DNA of 64,000 nt, from the IMG/VR virus record IMGVR_UViG_3300025782_000006; one strand, given 5' to 3'. A program made the position numbers and the translations under genes. Of the stretch, positions 18,488 to 47,767 are shown one piece after another. The stretch comes from an uncultured virus (IMG/VR IMGVR_UViG_3300025782_000006). Its lineage: Duplodnaviria > Heunggongvirae > Uroviricota > Caudoviricetes. Every line of letters begins with the position of its first letter. Positions within the stretch are counted from its first letter, which is position 1. The notes beneath the pieces were generated by a model, which worked only from the letters and a program-made list of their open reading frames with translations, was not told the origin of the DNA and ran no database searches.

Positions 18488-18589
18488 TTTAAATCTCCGT
18501 TATACTGTATTTATAGTTATTTCAGCAGAAACCCGCCAAAGTGTGCATTGTTAAGAGGCATGGCGGGTATGTTACTTAATGCTTGATTT

Positions 18590-27198: not shown

Positions 27199-27740
27199 CC
27201 TAGACCGTTTCTCATAAAATTATTACCAAACATTTCATTTACTGCACGCACAACTCCTTCAGATCCACGAGTGTGACCATAATCGTCCCCAGCAATAGTA
27301 CCGCCAGGTTTAACTTTAGGTAACCATGCTTTAATGTCAGCTAGTACACCTTCATACAAATGATCGCCATCAATGAATACAAAATCCAAACTAGCATCAG
27401 GGTATGTTGCGGCCGCACTAACACTATCCATACGTACAGCACGATAATATCCCTCTACAGGTTTCATATTAGTAATGAATTCATCATATAGTGTATCATT
27501 AACTACACTGGTATCAGTTTGATGCAATTCTTCGTTTGGGGTACCACGCCAAGTATCAACACAATCAAATTTAATGTCTTTACCACTGTTGATAATCTCA
27601 ACTGCCATGAATGCGGCGCTTTGTCCCCGCCAGGATCCTATTTCAACAAAGTGGCTTCCTGTAGGGAAGTATTCAACCATACCCTTGTAGATATCAAAAA
27701 AACTGCACCAGCCTTGTATATTTTGATAAAAATGATTCAC
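27180..27740 (-). CDS. Class I SAM methyltransferase (Methyltransf_24-like)
   Basis: FVEIGSWRGQS, DFVFIDGDHLYE, VKPGGTIAGDDY. Confidence 0.85.
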   Translation of the reverse strand: MNHFYQNIQGWCSFFDIYKGMVEYFPTGSHFVEIGSWRGQSAAFMAVEIINSGKDIKFDCVDTWRGTPNEELHQTDTSVVNDTLYDEFITNMKPVEGYYRAVRMDSVSAAATYPDASLDFVFIDGDHLYEGVLADIKAWLPKVKPGGTIAGDDYGHTRGSEGVVRAVNEMFGNNFMRNGLGWGKNL

Positions 27741-28969
27741 TATTTAATCAAACCCCATTTAGCAATAGCTTGATCGTACTCAGGACCGTATGTCTTATCT
27801 ATTGCTTGACGCATAGCTGTGGCTCCCGCTACTGTACCGCCTGGATGTCCGTGTACTGCTCCGCCTGCGTTGGCTAGATAATCTTGGCCAGCAATTTCTG
27901 TAACTTTTTCTACCAGGCCGGGATGGAATCCACAGCTTAGAGCAGGAACAGTATTACCTGCACGTAGAATATCTAGACATTCTTTAATCTCTTCTGGGTC
28001 ATCATTGCTATATCCGCCAACCATGCCTGTTTGTATAGTGTCGGCGCCCATCAGAGTAGCTAGCTGACACATAACTGGCCAACTGATACTAAAGCGATGA
28101 TTAACATCTGTGGTAACTTTGGCACCAGAACTTTGATAGTGCAAGTACAATGGCAAATCTAATTTGCGAATACTGTTATAACTACCATAGCCAGAGAATA
28201 CATTGATATGCACACCTGTTCCGCCTAACTCATGCACACGCTTAACACGATCGACTAACACATGCGGGTCGCAGTTAATAGTATGGCAAAATACGATCTT
28301 ACGTGATTGTTTTGCTAGATAGTTAGCAATAATATCTACACGACGATCCAATGGCGCACACGCAGGATTAACCATGATTTCATCTTCTTTGATAAAATCG
28401 ACCCCACCGTCAACCATCTGTTTGACCATCTCTAATAATACTTCAGGAGTAATACCAATCTTAGGTTTTACAATACTACCAAACAAAGGTTTTCCGTATT
28501 GGCCGGTTAATGCTCTAAATCCTGTGATACCAAACTTGGGTCCTAAGAAATGCTGTGTAACTGTTTCAGGAAGTTCTAATTTAATTAATCGGCAACTGTT
28601 AAAACAATCGATATCAACGTGTCCGCCCATGAGCTGGCATAACATATGAGCGACCCCGTCTGTTGCCCAGTCTGTGTTAGCCACAGGGAAAGCAATTTCT
28701 ACGTTGCCCCATACACGATTTTCAAGGTCTTTTTTATCACCTAGGATGATACAACTGTGATTTTCAAATAGGTCATCTGTTTCCCACTCATTGCGTACAC
28801 TGGGATTTCCTACGCTTTGCCCGATAGCTAAATTCCATGCGGCGTCATCTAAGCTAGTCTTACTAGTAATTTTATATGTTGCTATGTAATACTTAGATAA
28901 ATCTATTTCACTGCGGTCACGGTAAAACTTCATACTTGTCTCCAATAATACTTGGTCGTTTAACGACAC
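27740..28969 (-). CDS. RuBisCO-like protein (form IV RLP)
   Basis: GPKFG, GSIVKPKIG, GGVDFIKEDE, SCGFHPG, AGGAVHGHPGG; start probably MKFYRD (~28933). Confidence 0.92.
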   Translation of the reverse strand: MSLNDQVLLETSMKFYRDRSEIDLSKYYIATYKITSKTSLDDAAWNLAIGQSVGNPSVRNEWETDDLFENHSCIILGDKKDLENRVWGNVEIAFPVANTDWATDGVAHMLCQLMGGHVDIDCFNSCRLIKLELPETVTQHFLGPKFGITGFRALTGQYGKPLFGSIVKPKIGITPEVLLEMVKQMVDGGVDFIKEDEIMVNPACAPLDRRVDIIANYLAKQSRKIVFCHTINCDPHVLVDRVKRVHELGGTGVHINVFSGYGSYNSIRKLDLPLYLHYQSSGAKVTTDVNHRFSISWPVMCQLATLMGADTIQTGMVGGYSNDDPEEIKECLDILRAGNTVPALSCGFHPGLVEKVTEIAGQDYLANAGGAVHGHPGGTVAGATAMRQAIDKTYGPEYDQAIAKWGLIK

Positions 28970-36861: not shown

Positions 36862-37368
36862 TTAAGACTTTGTCAAATATTTTAAGATTCTATCTGGACC
36901 TAATGCAAAGTATTGCCGTTTTGGTTTGCAATAGTTCTTAAATGAAAAATTTTTATCTAACGGATTACTATATACCTTTACAATTTCATTGTTTTCAAAT
37001 AGTGCAACGTATTGCCAGAGTCGAGTTAACTCGTCAAGATCTCGATCAGTTCCAACGTAATTTTTTATTCGTAGTGTAAATTGACTGTCACTATCAACTA
37101 TTGGGATTAGGTCCGGTCCGTGGATATCAACATATGGAATTAGGAACGCAGTATTGCTTACCGCACAAACATGATCTACTCCCGAGTCTTTTAACTCCGA
37201 GTGTGCTGATTGATATCTTTTAATTTGATCCCAAGAATTGATGTTTGCTGGCAGTGGCAAACTAAAAACCACTGTGCGACAGCCCGTAAAAAGATCTGCA
37301 TAATCATTACAATTATGCAGTCCTTTAAGTTTTTTAGTATTTAGATTTTCTTGAAAATCAACAGCCAT
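36862..37368 (-). CDS. Degenerate peroxiredoxin/redoxin-fold protein
   Basis: DLFTGCRTVVFSLP, SGVDHVCAVS, DSDSQFT; the PGAFTPTC active-site motif is absent. Confidence 0.55.
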   Translation of the reverse strand: MAVDFQENLNTKKLKGLHNCNDYADLFTGCRTVVFSLPLPANINSWDQIKRYQSAHSELKDSGVDHVCAVSNTAFLIPYVDIHGPDLIPIVDSDSQFTLRIKNYVGTDRDLDELTRLWQYVALFENNEIVKVYSNPLDKNFSFKNYCKPKRQYFALGPDRILKYLTKS

Positions 37369-37372
37369 TGAA

Positions 37373-38377
37373 TTACGATTTAATAATACCGTCCAATAGT
37401 CCTGCTTGGAAGAACGTTTGATACTTATCGTATAATGGCTTAGTTAGTTCTTTATACTGTGCTGTTTCTTCTTCAGTTAATTCACGGTATGTAACACCGA
37501 TATCATCGTGATTATCTTTAGCAGCAAATTCTTCAGAATCATTAACTGACCATTGACGTTCAAGTTTGCTTGCGTATAAACTTGCTTCTGTAAATGCCTG
37601 TTGATCAACGGCGTCCAAAGACTCCCAGAAACTCTTGCTAATAATAATACTTGTTAAGAACAAATTATGTTTTGTATTAATAAGATGTTTTTTGTTTGTG
37701 CCTTGGAACTGTGCTAGATAACGTGGAATTGTTGTTTCTAATAAGTTGGCATTAAACCCTTCTTCAGCCACTTTCTTGGCCCAATCTCTAATAGAGAATG
37801 ATTCAGGTTTACTACCCAATGCTTGTACAGTATCTACTGTTACTGGATTAGTACCAATAGCATAAACTAATCCTTTCATGTCCTCTAAACTATTAATAGG
37901 AGTTTCAGAAGCCACACAGCGGAAACCACCAGAGTAAGTAAATGCCATGCCCTTAGCCGGACTATTTTCTTCTACTGAATCTAACAGGCCTTTACCAATT
38001 GGTCCTTCAAACACACGAGTTGCATGATCATGATCACGGAATAAGAATGGCATCTCAAGTACCCAAAAATCTGGATTACACCACATAGCTAATTCATTGA
38101 TATGAACTTGACTAATTTCAATGTTTCCTTGTTCCATTTCAACGATTGGGCCGTTGTCTCGGTAAAAGTTACCCATATTGCCTTTGTACTGTTCATGCTC
38201 TTTTGCCACTTGGTCAAAGTAATGTGTTGGGGTAAAAATTTCAATTTCGTATTTTCCATCAGTTAATTCAGCAATTTTAGCACTAAACGCTTCGGCTGTA
38301 CGCAGGAATAGTTTCACAGGCTCGTGTGCGATTAACCAACGGATTTTTCTTGTTTGACTCATTTGGGGATTCTCCAC
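37373..38377 (-). CDS. TRAP transporter DctP-like solute-binding protein
   Basis: LEMPFLFRDHDHA, YSGGFR, PINSLEDMKG, FWESLD; no signal peptide. Confidence 0.8.
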   Translation of the reverse strand: MENPQMSQTRKIRWLIAHEPVKLFLRTAEAFSAKIAELTDGKYEIEIFTPTHYFDQVAKEHEQYKGNMGNFYRDNGPIVEMEQGNIEISQVHINELAMWCNPDFWVLEMPFLFRDHDHATRVFEGPIGKGLLDSVEENSPAKGMAFTYSGGFRCVASETPINSLEDMKGLVYAIGTNPVTVDTVQALGSKPESFSIRDWAKKVAEEGFNANLLETTIPRYLAQFQGTNKKHLINTKHNLFLTSIIISKSFWESLDAVDQQAFTEASLYASKLERQWSVNDSEEFAAKDNHDDIGVTYRELTEEETAQYKELTKPLYDKYQTFFQAGLLDGIIKS

Positions 38378-39854: not shown

Positions 39855-39936
39855 TGGTACCCCAGACGGGACTCGAACCCGCACAGTACTGTCTCTTGAA
39901 CAGTTGCGTCTACCTAGTATTTTGCGCCACTGGGGT
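39855..39936 (-). tRNA. Atypical tRNA, Leu-like (anticodon AAG or offset CAA)
   Basis: Acceptor ACCCCAG/CTGGGGT; T-arm; Leu-type GGTAGACGC; loop TCAAGAG; short variable loop. Confidence 0.65.
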
Positions 39937-39938
39937 GT

Positions 39939-40013
39939 TGGTGGTAATAGTTAGATTCGAACTAACGACCTGCGCCGTATGAAGGCGATGCACTACCGCT
40001 GTGCTATATTACC
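39939..40013 (-). tRNA. tRNA-Met(CAT)
   Basis: CGCC-TTCATAC-GGCG; CCA. Confidence 0.85.
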
Positions 40014-40027
40014 ATATTGAAACACAC

Positions 40028-40219
40028 TTAATAAATGTACTTTAATATGGTAGGACCGGTCAGACTTGAACTGACAACCTCGAAGTTAAAAGCCTCTTGC
40101 TCTGCCTTTGAGCTACGATCCCTCTGTTTCGTTAGCTTACGTAGAGCTTTATTGCTCTTGCGGTGCGAGCCCGCCTTCCGTTTACTAGCTAGTACAGCAT
40201 AAATGTTTCTTTGTTTCAT
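40028..40219 (-). CDS. Small basic protein whose frame reads through tRNA-Lys
   Basis: Strong RBS AAGGAG; MKQRNIYAVLASKRKAGSHRKSNKALR. Confidence 0.5.
   Translation of the reverse strand: MKQRNIYAVLASKRKAGSHRKSNKALRKLTKQRDRSSKAEQEAFNFEVVSSSLTGPTILKYIY
40048..40122 (-). tRNA. tRNA-Lys(TTT)
   Basis: Loop CTTTTAA; CCA. Confidence 0.88.
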
Positions 40220-40397: not shown

Positions 40398-40473
40398 TGG
40401 TGCCTCCTCCTGGTTTCGCGCCAGGCTATCCAGCTCTTCAGACTGGCGCTTTCACTAGATTAGCTTAAGAGGC
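40398..40473 (-). tRNA. tRNA-Phe(GAA)
   Basis: CCAGT-CTGAAGA-GCTGG; atypical T-loop CGCGAAA. Confidence 0.85.
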
Positions 40474-41074: not shown

Positions 41075-41148
41075 TGGTGGAGGATGAGAGAATCGAACTC
41101 TCAATCTCGGCTTGCAAAGCCGATGTTATCCCATTTAACTAATCCCCC
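41075..41148 (-). tRNA. tRNA-Ala(TGC)
   Basis: TCGGC-TTTGCAA-GCCGA; G3:U70. Confidence 0.92.
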
Positions 41149-44626: not shown

Positions 44627-44679
44627 AGGTTAGTTCTCCTTATATCTATTTATCATTCTAACCTGTTATTTATAATTTA

Positions 44680-44746
44680 TGGGAACCTGTTGCCTAGGGC
44701 GTTTTTAGTGCCTAGGTCCGCGGTTGCCTTCCGGACTTGATTCCCA
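44680..44746 (-). ncRNA. Candidate small three-way-junction RNA
   Basis: TGGGAA/TTCCCA closing stem with GTCCG/CGGAC and CCTAGG/CCTAGG hairpins. Confidence 0.4.
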
Positions 44747-44827
44747 CTTACTTCTCAGCAGATCGAGAATGCTCGACGCGGCTAGTGCTTACACACTATT
44801 CAATACAGTCGCCACTGTAACCGAGTT

Positions 44828-44924
44828 TGGTGGACGCTCTTGGAGTTGAACCAAGACGGCTTGACTAAGTAGTCAATTATGAAGCCTTAACAGGTCTTAC
44901 CGTAAGCCAATTTTAACAACGCCC
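44828..44924 (-). ncRNA. tRNA-like RNA with Ala identity (mini-tmRNA-like)
   Basis: Acceptor GGGCGTT/AGCGTCC-A-CCA with G3:U70; T-arm CTTGG-TTCAACT-CCAAG; no canonical D or anticodon arm. Confidence 0.65.
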
Positions 44925-44947
44925 GTAAACAAAATGGTAATAACTTA

Positions 44948-45060
44948 CCATACAACTAAACACTCGGAGGTATCGGAGAGCAAATACATTGACCTCTCAG
45001 CAACTCAACGGAATTTTAATTTGCTCTTACCGTTTGTTGTTGGAATGTTTATGTGTATGG
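44948..45060 (-). ncRNA. Candidate kissing-loop RNA
   Basis: Long closing stem; two internal hairpins whose loops carry complementary AGAGCAAAT/ATTTGCTCT. Confidence 0.55.
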
Positions 45061-45187
45061 TGTCTTATCGTCTTTTTCATGCCCGCTATCGTCAATAGCA
45101 CACGCATTTCATATATTGTCAGACTCAAGCGATTCTGTTTGGGGTACATGTTGACTAGACATAACCTCCCTCCCGATCTACTCTCAA

Positions 45188-45279
45188 ACCATATTGAAAC
45201 ACACTACCTACGCACCATACGGCGTAGCCCACCCGTGGAACCTTTGATCAACTCCGGCCTAAGTATGCTTCAATATAGT
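45188..45279. repeat. Stem element sharing an 18-nt repeat with 40011-40028
   Basis: ACCATATTGAAACACACT at 45188 and 40011, each with an imperfect downstream complement. Confidence 0.65.
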
Positions 45280-45342: not shown

Positions 45343-45371
45343 AGTATAGCATTTTGGCAATTAAAGGACAA
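45343..45371 (-). promoter_or_regulatory. Sigma70-type promoter with conserved spacer
   Basis: TTGTCC-TTTAATTGCCAAAATGC-TATACT. Confidence 0.65.
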
Positions 45372-45627: not shown

Positions 45628-45711
45628 TGGTGGAGCATCCTGGGATCGAACCAGGCATGTCAAAGACGGCGGATTTACAGTCCACTGCATCACCGTTGAT
45701 GCTTCTGCTCC
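45628..45711 (-). tRNA. tRNA-Tyr(GTA)
   Basis: GTGGA-CTGTAAA-TCCGC; long variable arm. Confidence 0.92.
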
Positions 45712-46010
45712 TGTGTATTGTAAAGTATACTAGTCTATATGCCCCGTGTCAAGTGGGGTGGTAACCCGAATGGACGTTTACCCGCTCGTCATCTAGTATA
45801 CTTTAGAATACCCTCTCTTTCGAAAGGATATGCTAGGGCTATACCCCAGCCTGTAATTTTTTACACCACACAAGGTGCTCCATCCCACAGTCCGCCCATT
45901 TAGCTGTTTATAGTGTAGCAAGGATCTCGTTCCCTATACCACTTTACTGCCGATCAAAGATAGTCTGGCCAAAAAACGTACCAGTCATCTTCATAACCTC
46001 AATCCACTTA

Positions 46011-47679: not shown

Positions 47680-47767
47680 TGGTGGGCCGGGAGGGACTTG
47701 AACCCACAATGAGCTTTCGCTGGTCGATTATGAGTCGACTGCCTGCAACCAATACGGCGTCCGGCCC
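47680..47767 (-). tRNA. tRNA(CAT), Ile2-like, with long variable arm
   Basis: GGGCC acceptor; GTCGA-CTCATAA-TCGAC; extra arm AGC-GAAA-GCT. Confidence 0.75.

What the first reader, a model, noticed from the sequence alone, without database searches (positions are those of the whole stretch)
44828..44924. 97-nt alanine-identity tRNA-like RNA resembling a miniature tmRNA
Seen: 7-bp acceptor with G3:U70, A73 and CCA; canonical T-arm; an unpaired D-region followed by GGCTT that can pair with AAGCC just before the T-arm. This is the layout of a tmRNA tRNA-like domain. The ~40-nt insert has a small hairpin, then TAAG-GCT-TCA-TAA (Ala-Ser-stop) and a TTGACT/AGTCAA hairpin. Established: G3:U70 specifies AlaRS charging, and tmRNA resume codons are typically GCN. 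Inference: a minimal ribosome-rescue RNA adding a 2-3 residue tag that may avoid degradation, or an SmpB decoy. A normal tRNA-Ala exists separately at 41075.
Basis: partly seen in the sequence, partly recalled or inferred. Interest (0 to 1): 0.75.

Follow-up and report, generated by a model that had tools for sequence, protein, structure and literature searches.

The report
Orphan alanine-type tRNA mimic in phage
A large uncultured phage carries a real 97-base RNA gene with the alanine-accepting top half of a tRNA, but it has no working tag message and lacks the grip for the rescue protein SmpB, so it is most likely one more non-decoding tRNA look-alike of phages and not a miniature ribosome-rescue RNA.

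Summary
The gene is real: minus strand 44828-44924, in the tRNA array of a T4-like phage. It has a 7-bp acceptor with G3·U70, A73, encoded CCA and a canonical T-arm.

The tmRNA reading fails. The Ala-Ser-stop frame is chance-level (29%), sits in a stem and is one base off the tmRNA restart register. The SmpB-contact bases are missing. Models of the known tag-less TLD-only RNAs (DS6A type) score it like an ordinary tRNA: 19.6 bits against 48-71 for held-out members.

The T-stem predicts weaker EF-Tu binding than any of 69 scored tRNA-Ala genes. Only identical copies were found, so nothing is backed by covariation.

Best reading (0.5): an alanine-chargeable, non-decoding tRNA mimic, probably a degenerate offshoot of TLD-only RNAs, acting as a decoy or processing mark. 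Boldest open reading (0.08): a natural Asn-to-Ala mistranslating tRNA. The scan has noted TLD-only RNAs and anticodon-less alanine mimics on other DNA before.

The parts
44828..44924 (-). 97-nt alanine-acceptor tRNA-like RNA gene (whole element)
   Evidence: identical copies in one IMG/VR contig and two metagenome contigs
44918..44924 (-). 5' strand of acceptor stem (nt 1-7; G1, G2, G3)
   Evidence: pair probabilities 0.68-1.0
44828..44838 (-). 3' strand of acceptor (U70, C71, C72), discriminator A73 and encoded CCA
   Evidence: bacterial Ala identity set in PMC9976931 Table 1
44904..44917 (-). D-region without a stable stem (nt 8-21); GG at nt 17-18, no CGA
44899..44903 (-). 5' strand of the favoured closing helix (nt 22-26), pairs with 44856-44860
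44882..44898 (-). Hairpin 1 (nt 27-43): reads either as the small second hairpin of TLD-only RNAs or as an anticodon arm with GUU at nt 34-36 (44889-44891)
44877..44885 (-).
44861..44876 (-). Hairpin 2 (nt 49-64), 6 bp with a 4-nt loop; ARAGORN's variable arm
   Evidence: pair probabilities 0.53-0.9
44839..44855 (-). T-arm (nt 70-86); T-stem C49-G65, U50-A64, U51-A63 predicts weak EF-Tu binding
45343..45371 (-). Sigma-70-like promoter (9 of 12, extended -10) about 420 nt upstream; a stronger one (11 of 12) lies at 45724-45752 and no terminator-like site was found between them and the RNA
   Evidence: consensus scan only; 9 sites found against 5.5 expected
44940..45062 (-). Long hairpin RNA directly upstream, probably on the same precursor
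   Evidence: z -5.37, 0 of 200 shuffles as stable
44660..44825 (-). Predicted three-hairpin cloverleaf and three-way junction directly after the CCA
   Evidence: z -1.69, 10 of 200 shuffles as stable; weak

Best explanation
An alanine-chargeable, non-decoding tRNA mimic, most likely a degenerate offshoot of the tag-less TLD-only RNAs of phages. (1) It is co-transcribed with the tRNA array and cut out by RNase P and 3' trimming, which also frees the structured RNAs on either side (inferred). (2) Host AlaRS can load it through G3·U70, G2-C71 and A73 (marks shown; charging inferred). (3) It binds EF-Tu weakly and has lost the SmpB elbow, so it neither decodes nor rescues ribosomes (sequence shown; binding inferred). 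(4) The stable tRNA-shaped product soaks up host factors that attack or sense tRNA ends or loops, and doubles as a processing mark in the non-coding cassette (inferred, untested).
For: The top half is intact: acceptor 7 of 7 pairs, T-stem 5 of 5, canonical T-loop, encoded CCA, among 24 other ARAGORN tRNA genes. It has three of the five bacterial Ala determinants, including the main one, and acceptor-only minihelices are AlaRS substrates (PMC2175331 passages). The favoured fold is a three-way junction with no open anticodon loop: -27.0 against -17.2 kcal/mol for the cloverleaf. Predicted EF-Tu affinity is -9.1 kcal/mol by Table 2 of PMC3239215; 0 of 69 scored tRNA-Ala genes are that weak (range -11.2 to -9.6; 8 of 77 could not be scored). 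For TLD ancestry: Ala acceptor with no D-stem; the family's loop-plus-small-hairpin motif is present, with 0.2% chance in shuffles and 8 of 712 ordinary tRNAs; family member L223 has also lost the GAC linker, and long member L288 has extra hairpins. A 95-nt phage RNA (L220) has the same two-hairpin layout.
Against: No diverged homologue was found, so neither the fold nor selection on the gene is shown. A sequence profile of the TLD-only family finds no family signal in the interior: 9.8 bits, and 945 of 1000 interior shuffles score as high. The family motif was partly used to find the family; only 3 of the 6 members found without it carry it strictly. G4-C69 and G20 are not met. The in-register Asn-type loop is unexplained by this reading. 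No expression or processing data. The decoy and processing roles have no direct evidence.
Confidence: 0.5

Rival explanations
1. A decaying relic of a tRNA or TLD-only gene that is still processed but has no selected function.
For: Absent from 79 of 80 loci around a neighbouring gene and from 39 of 40 phage records searched with its own model. Interior no more stable than shuffles, 65 of 400. It fits neither family model.
Against: All 12 top-half pairs, the T-loop and the CCA are intact while the D-region and linker differ from both candidate ancestors. Two interior hairpins and a closing helix form. Most searched records are fragments (1 of 40 at least 90% complete), so absence is weak evidence.
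Confidence: 0.2
2. A divergent but still working TLD-only mini-tmRNA that titrates SmpB and so damps host trans-translation, as reported for DS6A.
For: Ala acceptor without D-stem; family loop-hairpin motif; both models leave a 3-nt linker; second-best score in the tRNA region under model R3, 27.3 bits. The five-base restart motif of E. coli tmRNA occurs at nt 58-62 (5% chance). No SmpB gene was found among 72 window proteins or in 13 phage records, as expected for a decoy.
Against: No CGA in the D-loop and no [G/C]AC linker; G19 and A334 are the SmpB contacts, and G19C blocks binding (PMC8363625 passages). Score 19.6 bits against 48-71 for 10 held-out members, and below the window's own tRNA-Ala at 32.2.
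Confidence: 0.15
3. A D-stem-less, long-variable-arm tRNA that is charged with Ala but reads Asn codons through its GUU loop, causing Asn-to-Ala substitution.
For: ARAGORN calls tRNA-Asn with the anticodon at exactly nt 34, but only 7 of 1000 interior shuffles. A CU-NNN-AA loop on a stem of at least 4 of 5 pairs in register arises in 0.2% of 100,000 shuffles (2.7% with a relaxed loop rule) and in 0 of 26 other Ala-acceptor oddities. U51-A63 occurs in 12 of 32 Asn tRNAs and 0 of 79 Ala tRNAs. A73 disfavours AsnRS, which wants G73. Precedents exist: allo-tRNAs with G3·U70 (PMC5389517) and Asn-to-Pro tRNAs (PMC10404621).
Against: The D-stem has only two G·U pairs. The open-loop arm costs +3.0 kcal/mol against -3.4 collapsed, while the phage's true tRNA-Asn arm is stable open at -3.2. 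Closing pair C31-G39 has probability 0.0. The Rfam tRNA model gives no hit even at E 10. Ala on a weak T-stem should bind EF-Tu poorly. A normal tRNA-Asn lies 800 nt downstream.
Confidence: 0.1
4. One reading: a minimal ribosome-rescue RNA that adds Ala-Ala-Ser and terminates.
For: The triplets exist. Two-residue tags are known in 25 full tmRNAs (PMC11915505 passage).
Against: Chance 29%; U at the A86 position; the codon is buried in hairpin 1; no pseudoknot region; SmpB contacts absent; ARAGORN and Rfam tmRNA models give no hit.
Confidence: 0.02

Closest known systems
TLD-only ('standard, no CDS') tmRNA of mycobacteriophage DS6A (PMC4131195 and PMC11915505, passages; Mao et al. 2009 as cited there, not seen) and its unannotated phage relatives (L223-L248, L058, L066, L288)
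   Same: G3·U70 acceptor, A73, T-arm, no D-stem, a helix closing a short insert that starts with a purine-rich loop and a small hairpin, no tag frame.
   Different: No D-loop CGA, no [G/C]AC linker, closing helix 4-5 bp instead of 7, an extra hairpin, U51-A63; model scores at tRNA background.
tRNA-like stable RNAs in phage tRNA clusters: T4 rnaC and rnaD (annotation; 'of yet unknown functions', PMC9697503 passage)
   Same: Non-decoding structured RNA gene embedded in a T4-like phage tRNA array; rnaC also ends in a T-arm.
   Different: No match of either T4 RNA to the RNA's own model; the T4 RNAs lack the alanine acceptor.
Allo-tRNAs (Mukai et al. 2017, PMC5389517, passages)
   Same: Long variable arm, some with G3·U70 and a non-Ala anticodon.
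   Different: Allo-tRNAs have an 8/4 or 9/3 acceptor branch and a long D-stem; this RNA is 7/5 with no D-stem.
Dual-identity tRNA-ProX of Streptomyces and Kitasatospora (PMC10404621, abstract)
   Same: An Asn anticodon on an acceptor for another amino acid, if the cloverleaf forms.
   Different: Those are proline tRNA bodies encoded next to a ProRS isoform; here the body is irregular and no synthetase was found among 72 window proteins.
Non-proteinogenic tRNA-Gly of Staphylococcus and other weak EF-Tu binders (PMC3239215, passages)
   Same: T-stem predicted to bind EF-Tu about 1 kcal/mol weaker than its amino-acid class, next to a normal isoacceptor gene.
   Different: The shortfall (0.9-1.2 against the paper's Ala means) is just under the paper's 1.3 kcal/mol outlier cut-off; no aminoacyl transferase partner was identified in the window.

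Membership tests
tmRNA (full, tagging) | Match to Rfam tmRNA models or ARAGORN tmRNA call | tested here: not met
   note RF00023 also missed 2 of 4 TLD-only members tested
tmRNA (full, tagging) | Resume codon with U85/A86 five and four bases upstream, single-stranded | tested here: not met
   U at the A86 position, codon inside hairpin 1
tmRNA (full, tagging) | Tag frame beyond chance and conserved in homologues | tested here: not met
   29% by chance; no homologues to test conservation
TLD-only mini-tmRNA (DS6A type) | G3·U70 acceptor, A73, T-arm, no D-stem | tested here: met
TLD-only mini-tmRNA (DS6A type) | D-loop ending in CGA (SmpB contact) | tested here: not met
   CGA or AGA in 15 of 16 members, absent here
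TLD-only mini-tmRNA (DS6A type) | [G/C]AC linker before the T-stem | tested here: not met
   15 of 16 members; CGU here
TLD-only mini-tmRNA (DS6A type) | About 7-bp helix 2, purine-rich loop and small hairpin | tested here: inconclusive
   loop-hairpin motif present (0.2% chance); helix only 4-5 bp in two competing registers; profile finds no interior signal
TLD-only mini-tmRNA (DS6A type) | Covariance-model score above tRNA background | tested here: not met
   19.6 bits (R1) and 27.3 (R3) against tRNA-Ala 32.2 and 34.9; held-out members 48-71 on R1
TLD-only mini-tmRNA (DS6A type) | Binds SmpB and inhibits host tagging | not testable with these tools
   needs gel shift and a tagging reporter
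Elongator tRNA (Ala-charged, GUU anticodon) | 7-nt anticodon loop at 32-38 on a 5-bp stem | tested here: inconclusive
   in register, 4 of 5 pairs, rare in shuffles, but predicted to collapse
Elongator tRNA (Ala-charged, GUU anticodon) | D-stem of 3-4 bp and Rfam tRNA match | tested here: not met
   two G·U pairs only; no RF00005 hit while 23 of the other 24 ARAGORN genes hit
Elongator tRNA (Ala-charged, GUU anticodon) | T-stem tuned for EF-Tu binding of Ala-tRNA | tested here: not met
   -9.1 kcal/mol predicted; 0 of 69 scored tRNA-Ala that weak
Allo-tRNA | 8/4 or 9/3 acceptor branch with long D-stem | tested here: not met
   7/5 branch, no D-stem
AlaRS substrate | G3·U70, A73, G2-C71 (main); G4-C69, G20 (minor) | tested here: inconclusive
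   main marks met; C4-G69 and C at position 20 instead of the minor ones; charging not measured

The most novel reading that the evidence does not exclude
The RNA refolds as the ARAGORN cloverleaf and is a phage-encoded, D-stem-less long-arm tRNA that AlaRS charges but that reads AAC/AAU, so the phage carries a natural Asn-to-Ala mistranslator beside its normal tRNA-Asn. A milder form: an Ala-capped decoy that displays an Asn anticodon loop to host anticodon nucleases.
Probability: 0.08. Interest if true: 0.75.

Novelty: new variant of a known kind. Interest (0 to 1): 0.35.

Why it matters
As an orphan tRNA mimic it adds one more form to a poorly annotated group of alanine-acceptor RNAs in phage tRNA arrays. 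It is also a practical warning: ARAGORN annotates it as a second tRNA-Asn and Rfam misses it. It is a natural test of what a TLD-like RNA does once the SmpB contacts are gone. If the cloverleaf reading were right, a phage would carry a dedicated mistranslating tRNA, which would surprise specialists; that reading is unlikely but cheap to test.

Tried and rejected
L360 (32.5 bits) and L220 (30.9) top the non-self scores but lie near tRNA background, up to 26.8; L360 came from a pattern sharing the matched motif, so I do not count it a homologue. Permuted two-piece tmRNA rejected: both acceptor strands are in standard order within 97 nt, although related phages carry permuted tmRNAs. YrlA, SRP and other Rfam families: no hit at E 10. 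A downstream 11-mer complementary to nt 1-11 does not displace the acceptor (0.57-0.99 in three contexts). A 9-nt repeat shared with the upstream hairpin was judged chance. Expression could not be examined. Whether this phage has its own tmRNA or smpB is open: the nearest record is 35% complete and the 267-kb metagenome contig could not be searched.

Full report
Setting. The window is part of a T4-like large phage: terminase large subunit, RecA-like and UvsY-like recombination proteins, UvsW-like helicase, single-strand binding protein, GroEL/GroES and many sugar-modifying enzymes. ARAGORN finds 25 tRNA genes, all on the minus strand. The finding is one of them, 44828-44924, called tRNA-Asn. 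Rfam's tRNA model hits 23 of the other 24 but not this one, even at E 10. It lies in a 760-nt non-coding gap between tRNA-Gly and an HNH gene, downstream of sigma-70-like promoters with no terminator-like site between. Positions below are on the RNA.

Observation. The acceptor (7 bp, G1-C72, G2-C71, G3·U70), A73, CCA and T-arm are real and far beyond chance. There is no stable D-stem. The interior is less certain. The interior as a whole is no more stable than its shuffles, 65 of 400. The same ranking holds in longer precursor contexts.

The tag. An Ala codon with a stop within two codons appears in 29% of shuffled inserts. tmRNA sets its frame by U85 and A86, five and four bases before the resume codon, and pyrimidines at 86 give no activity (PMC2481249, passages). 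The codon is also in the 3' strand of hairpin 1. The E. coli five-base restart motif occurs at nt 58-62, at 5% chance, but the frame after it runs into the T-arm. I reject tagging.

TLD-only family. Tag-less TLD RNAs are published for phage DS6A, mitochondria and some plastids (PMC4131195 and PMC11915505, passages). My scans recovered unannotated phage members of 79-112 nt. An alignment of 13 fitted to model R1 keeps 98% of cells paired, with changes on both sides in 18 of 22 pairs (the fit leans towards the structure). SmpB grips the D-loop and variable-loop bases A15, U17, G19 and A334, and G19C blocks binding (PMC8363625, passages). In 16 members, several of them near-duplicates, the D-loop CGA/AGA and the [G/C]AC linker each occur 15 times; this RNA has neither. 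Model R1 (5 sequences) gives it 19.6 bits, inside the 9-32 range of the window's tRNAs and below its tRNA-Ala; ten held-out members score 48-71, an eleventh near-identical to a training sequence 97, and one long form 38.5. Model R3 (13 sequences) gives 27.3, against 34.9 for tRNA-Ala and up to 26.8 for other tRNAs. It is not a member by these tests. Ancestry is another matter. Against this, 13 of the 16 members came from patterns holding that motif, only 3 of 6 found without it carry it strictly, and a sequence profile sees no family signal in the interior (945 of 1000 shuffles score as high).

GUU sits at exactly 34-36 in an Asn-type loop. ARAGORN calls only 7 of 1000 interior shuffles a tRNA. 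A strict loop-and-stem test passes 0.2% of shuffles, 2.7% when relaxed, and 0 of 26 other Ala-acceptor oddities. U51-A63 is found in 12 of 32 Asn tRNAs and 0 of 79 Ala tRNAs in the fetched loci. These signals use the same bases as the TLD motif, so at most one is ancestral. The D-stem has only two G·U pairs, the open loop is 6.4 kcal/mol less stable than the collapsed form, and A73 is not the Asn discriminator. If it did decode, it would put Ala at Asn codons, as allo-tRNAs and tRNA-ProX do for other pairs (PMC5389517, passages; PMC10404621, abstract).

Charging and delivery. The bacterial Ala set is A73, G2-C71, G3·U70, G4-C69 and G20 (PMC9976931, Table 1 passage). The first three are met. 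C4-G69 is also the rule in 11 of 13 TLD-only RNAs. Acceptor-only substrates are charged (PMC2175331, abstract and passages). By the three-pair rule of PMC3239215 (Table 2 passage) the T-stem gives -9.1 kcal/mol. The paper's Ala means are -10.0 to -10.3 and its outlier cut-off is 1.3, so this is just short of an outlier there; in my set 0 of 69 scored tRNA-Ala genes are as weak (8 of 77 unscored).

Distribution. Only identical copies exist in what I could search: one IMG/VR contig and two metagenome contigs, 100% over 1697 nt. It is in 1 of 80 loci around a neighbouring gene, 1 of 50 records by blast and 1 of 40 by its own model; in each case the hit is the identical contig, and most records are fragments. 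So there is no covariation evidence. No SmpB was found among 72 window proteins or in 13 records.

Mechanism. Most likely (0.5) the RNA is cut from the array precursor by tRNA-processing enzymes, can be alanylated, and stays off the ribosome because both EF-Tu and SmpB engage it poorly. It would then serve as a tRNA-shaped decoy and as a processing mark between a strong upstream hairpin (z -5.4) and a weaker downstream structure (z -1.7). The anatomy is shown; processing, charging and role are inferred. The role of RNase P and the existence of tRNA-targeting host defences rest on my own knowledge, not on a call. Rivals: relic 0.2, working SmpB decoy 0.15, missense tRNA 0.1, tagging mini-tmRNA 0.02.

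Novelty. Literature searches turned up the DS6A class, allo-tRNAs, dual-identity tRNAs, T4 rnaC/rnaD of unknown function (PMC9697503, passages) and a survey of viral structured RNAs (PMC10690425, passages; its supplementary tables, which could list this RNA, were not examined). None of the passages seen describes this RNA; the library lacks most subscription papers, and Mao et al. 2009 was not seen. Earlier scan notes describe TLD-only RNAs and anticodon-less alanine mimics in other genomes, none with a look-alike sequence; I reuse their wording 'alanine-type tRNA mimic'. Verdict: new variant of a known kind, interest 0.35.

Noticed in passing
window 39855-39936 (-): tRNA-like gene with a T-arm, CCA and a CAA-containing loop, missed by ARAGORN and by Rfam at the gathering score.
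   Followed up: no
window 40398-40473 and 45628-45711 (-): tRNA-Phe-like and tRNA-Tyr-like genes found by Rfam but not by ARAGORN.
   Followed up: partly
window 47680-47767 (-): 88-nt tRNA with CAU anticodon and a long variable arm, unusual for Met or Ile2.
   Followed up: no
window 45188-45279 (-): An 18-bp closing stem encloses a 56-nt module; its 3' strand motif recurs just before tRNA 5' ends at about window 40013-40028 and in related arrays (L131, L136, L150, L182, L197), suggesting a class of processing stems.
   Followed up: partly
window 44940-45062 (-): Strong long hairpin RNA (z -5.4) with no Rfam match; a 26-codon His-rich frame at 45027-45107 runs into it, with no clear ribosome-binding site.
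   Followed up: partly
window 44660-44825 (-): Three-hairpin cloverleaf and a three-way junction after the CCA; 44697-44707 is complementary (10 of 11) to the RNA's first 11 bases; a T4-late-promoter-like octamer (motif recalled) at 44667-44674 precedes the HNH gene.
   Followed up: partly
window 45242-45255 (-): Stretch complementary (12 of 14) to the RNA's T-arm; probably chance.
   Followed up: no
L220:801-895, L213:801-900, L217:801-906, L214:801-912, L288:466-568: Further 95-112-nt alanine-acceptor RNAs in phage contigs; L288 and L214 keep the SmpB elbow, L220 and L213 score 43-45 bits on model R3 without it.
   Followed up: partly
L163:9733-10182 and L166:5329-5778: Related phages carry permuted two-piece tmRNA genes with a long tag.
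   Followed up: no
L323, L369, L373: Ordinary-length tRNA genes with G3·U70 but non-Ala anticodon calls (Met, Pro, Ser); possible dual-identity tRNAs or anticodon mis-calls.
   Followed up: no
window 27740-28969 (-): RuBisCO-like protein among sugar-modifying genes.
   Followed up: no
window 36862-38377 (-): DctP-like binding protein followed by a redoxin-fold gene inside the tRNA array; the scan has noted this module elsewhere.
   Followed up: no
window 18531-18567 (-): abiF RNA motif between groEL and the next gene.
   Followed up: no
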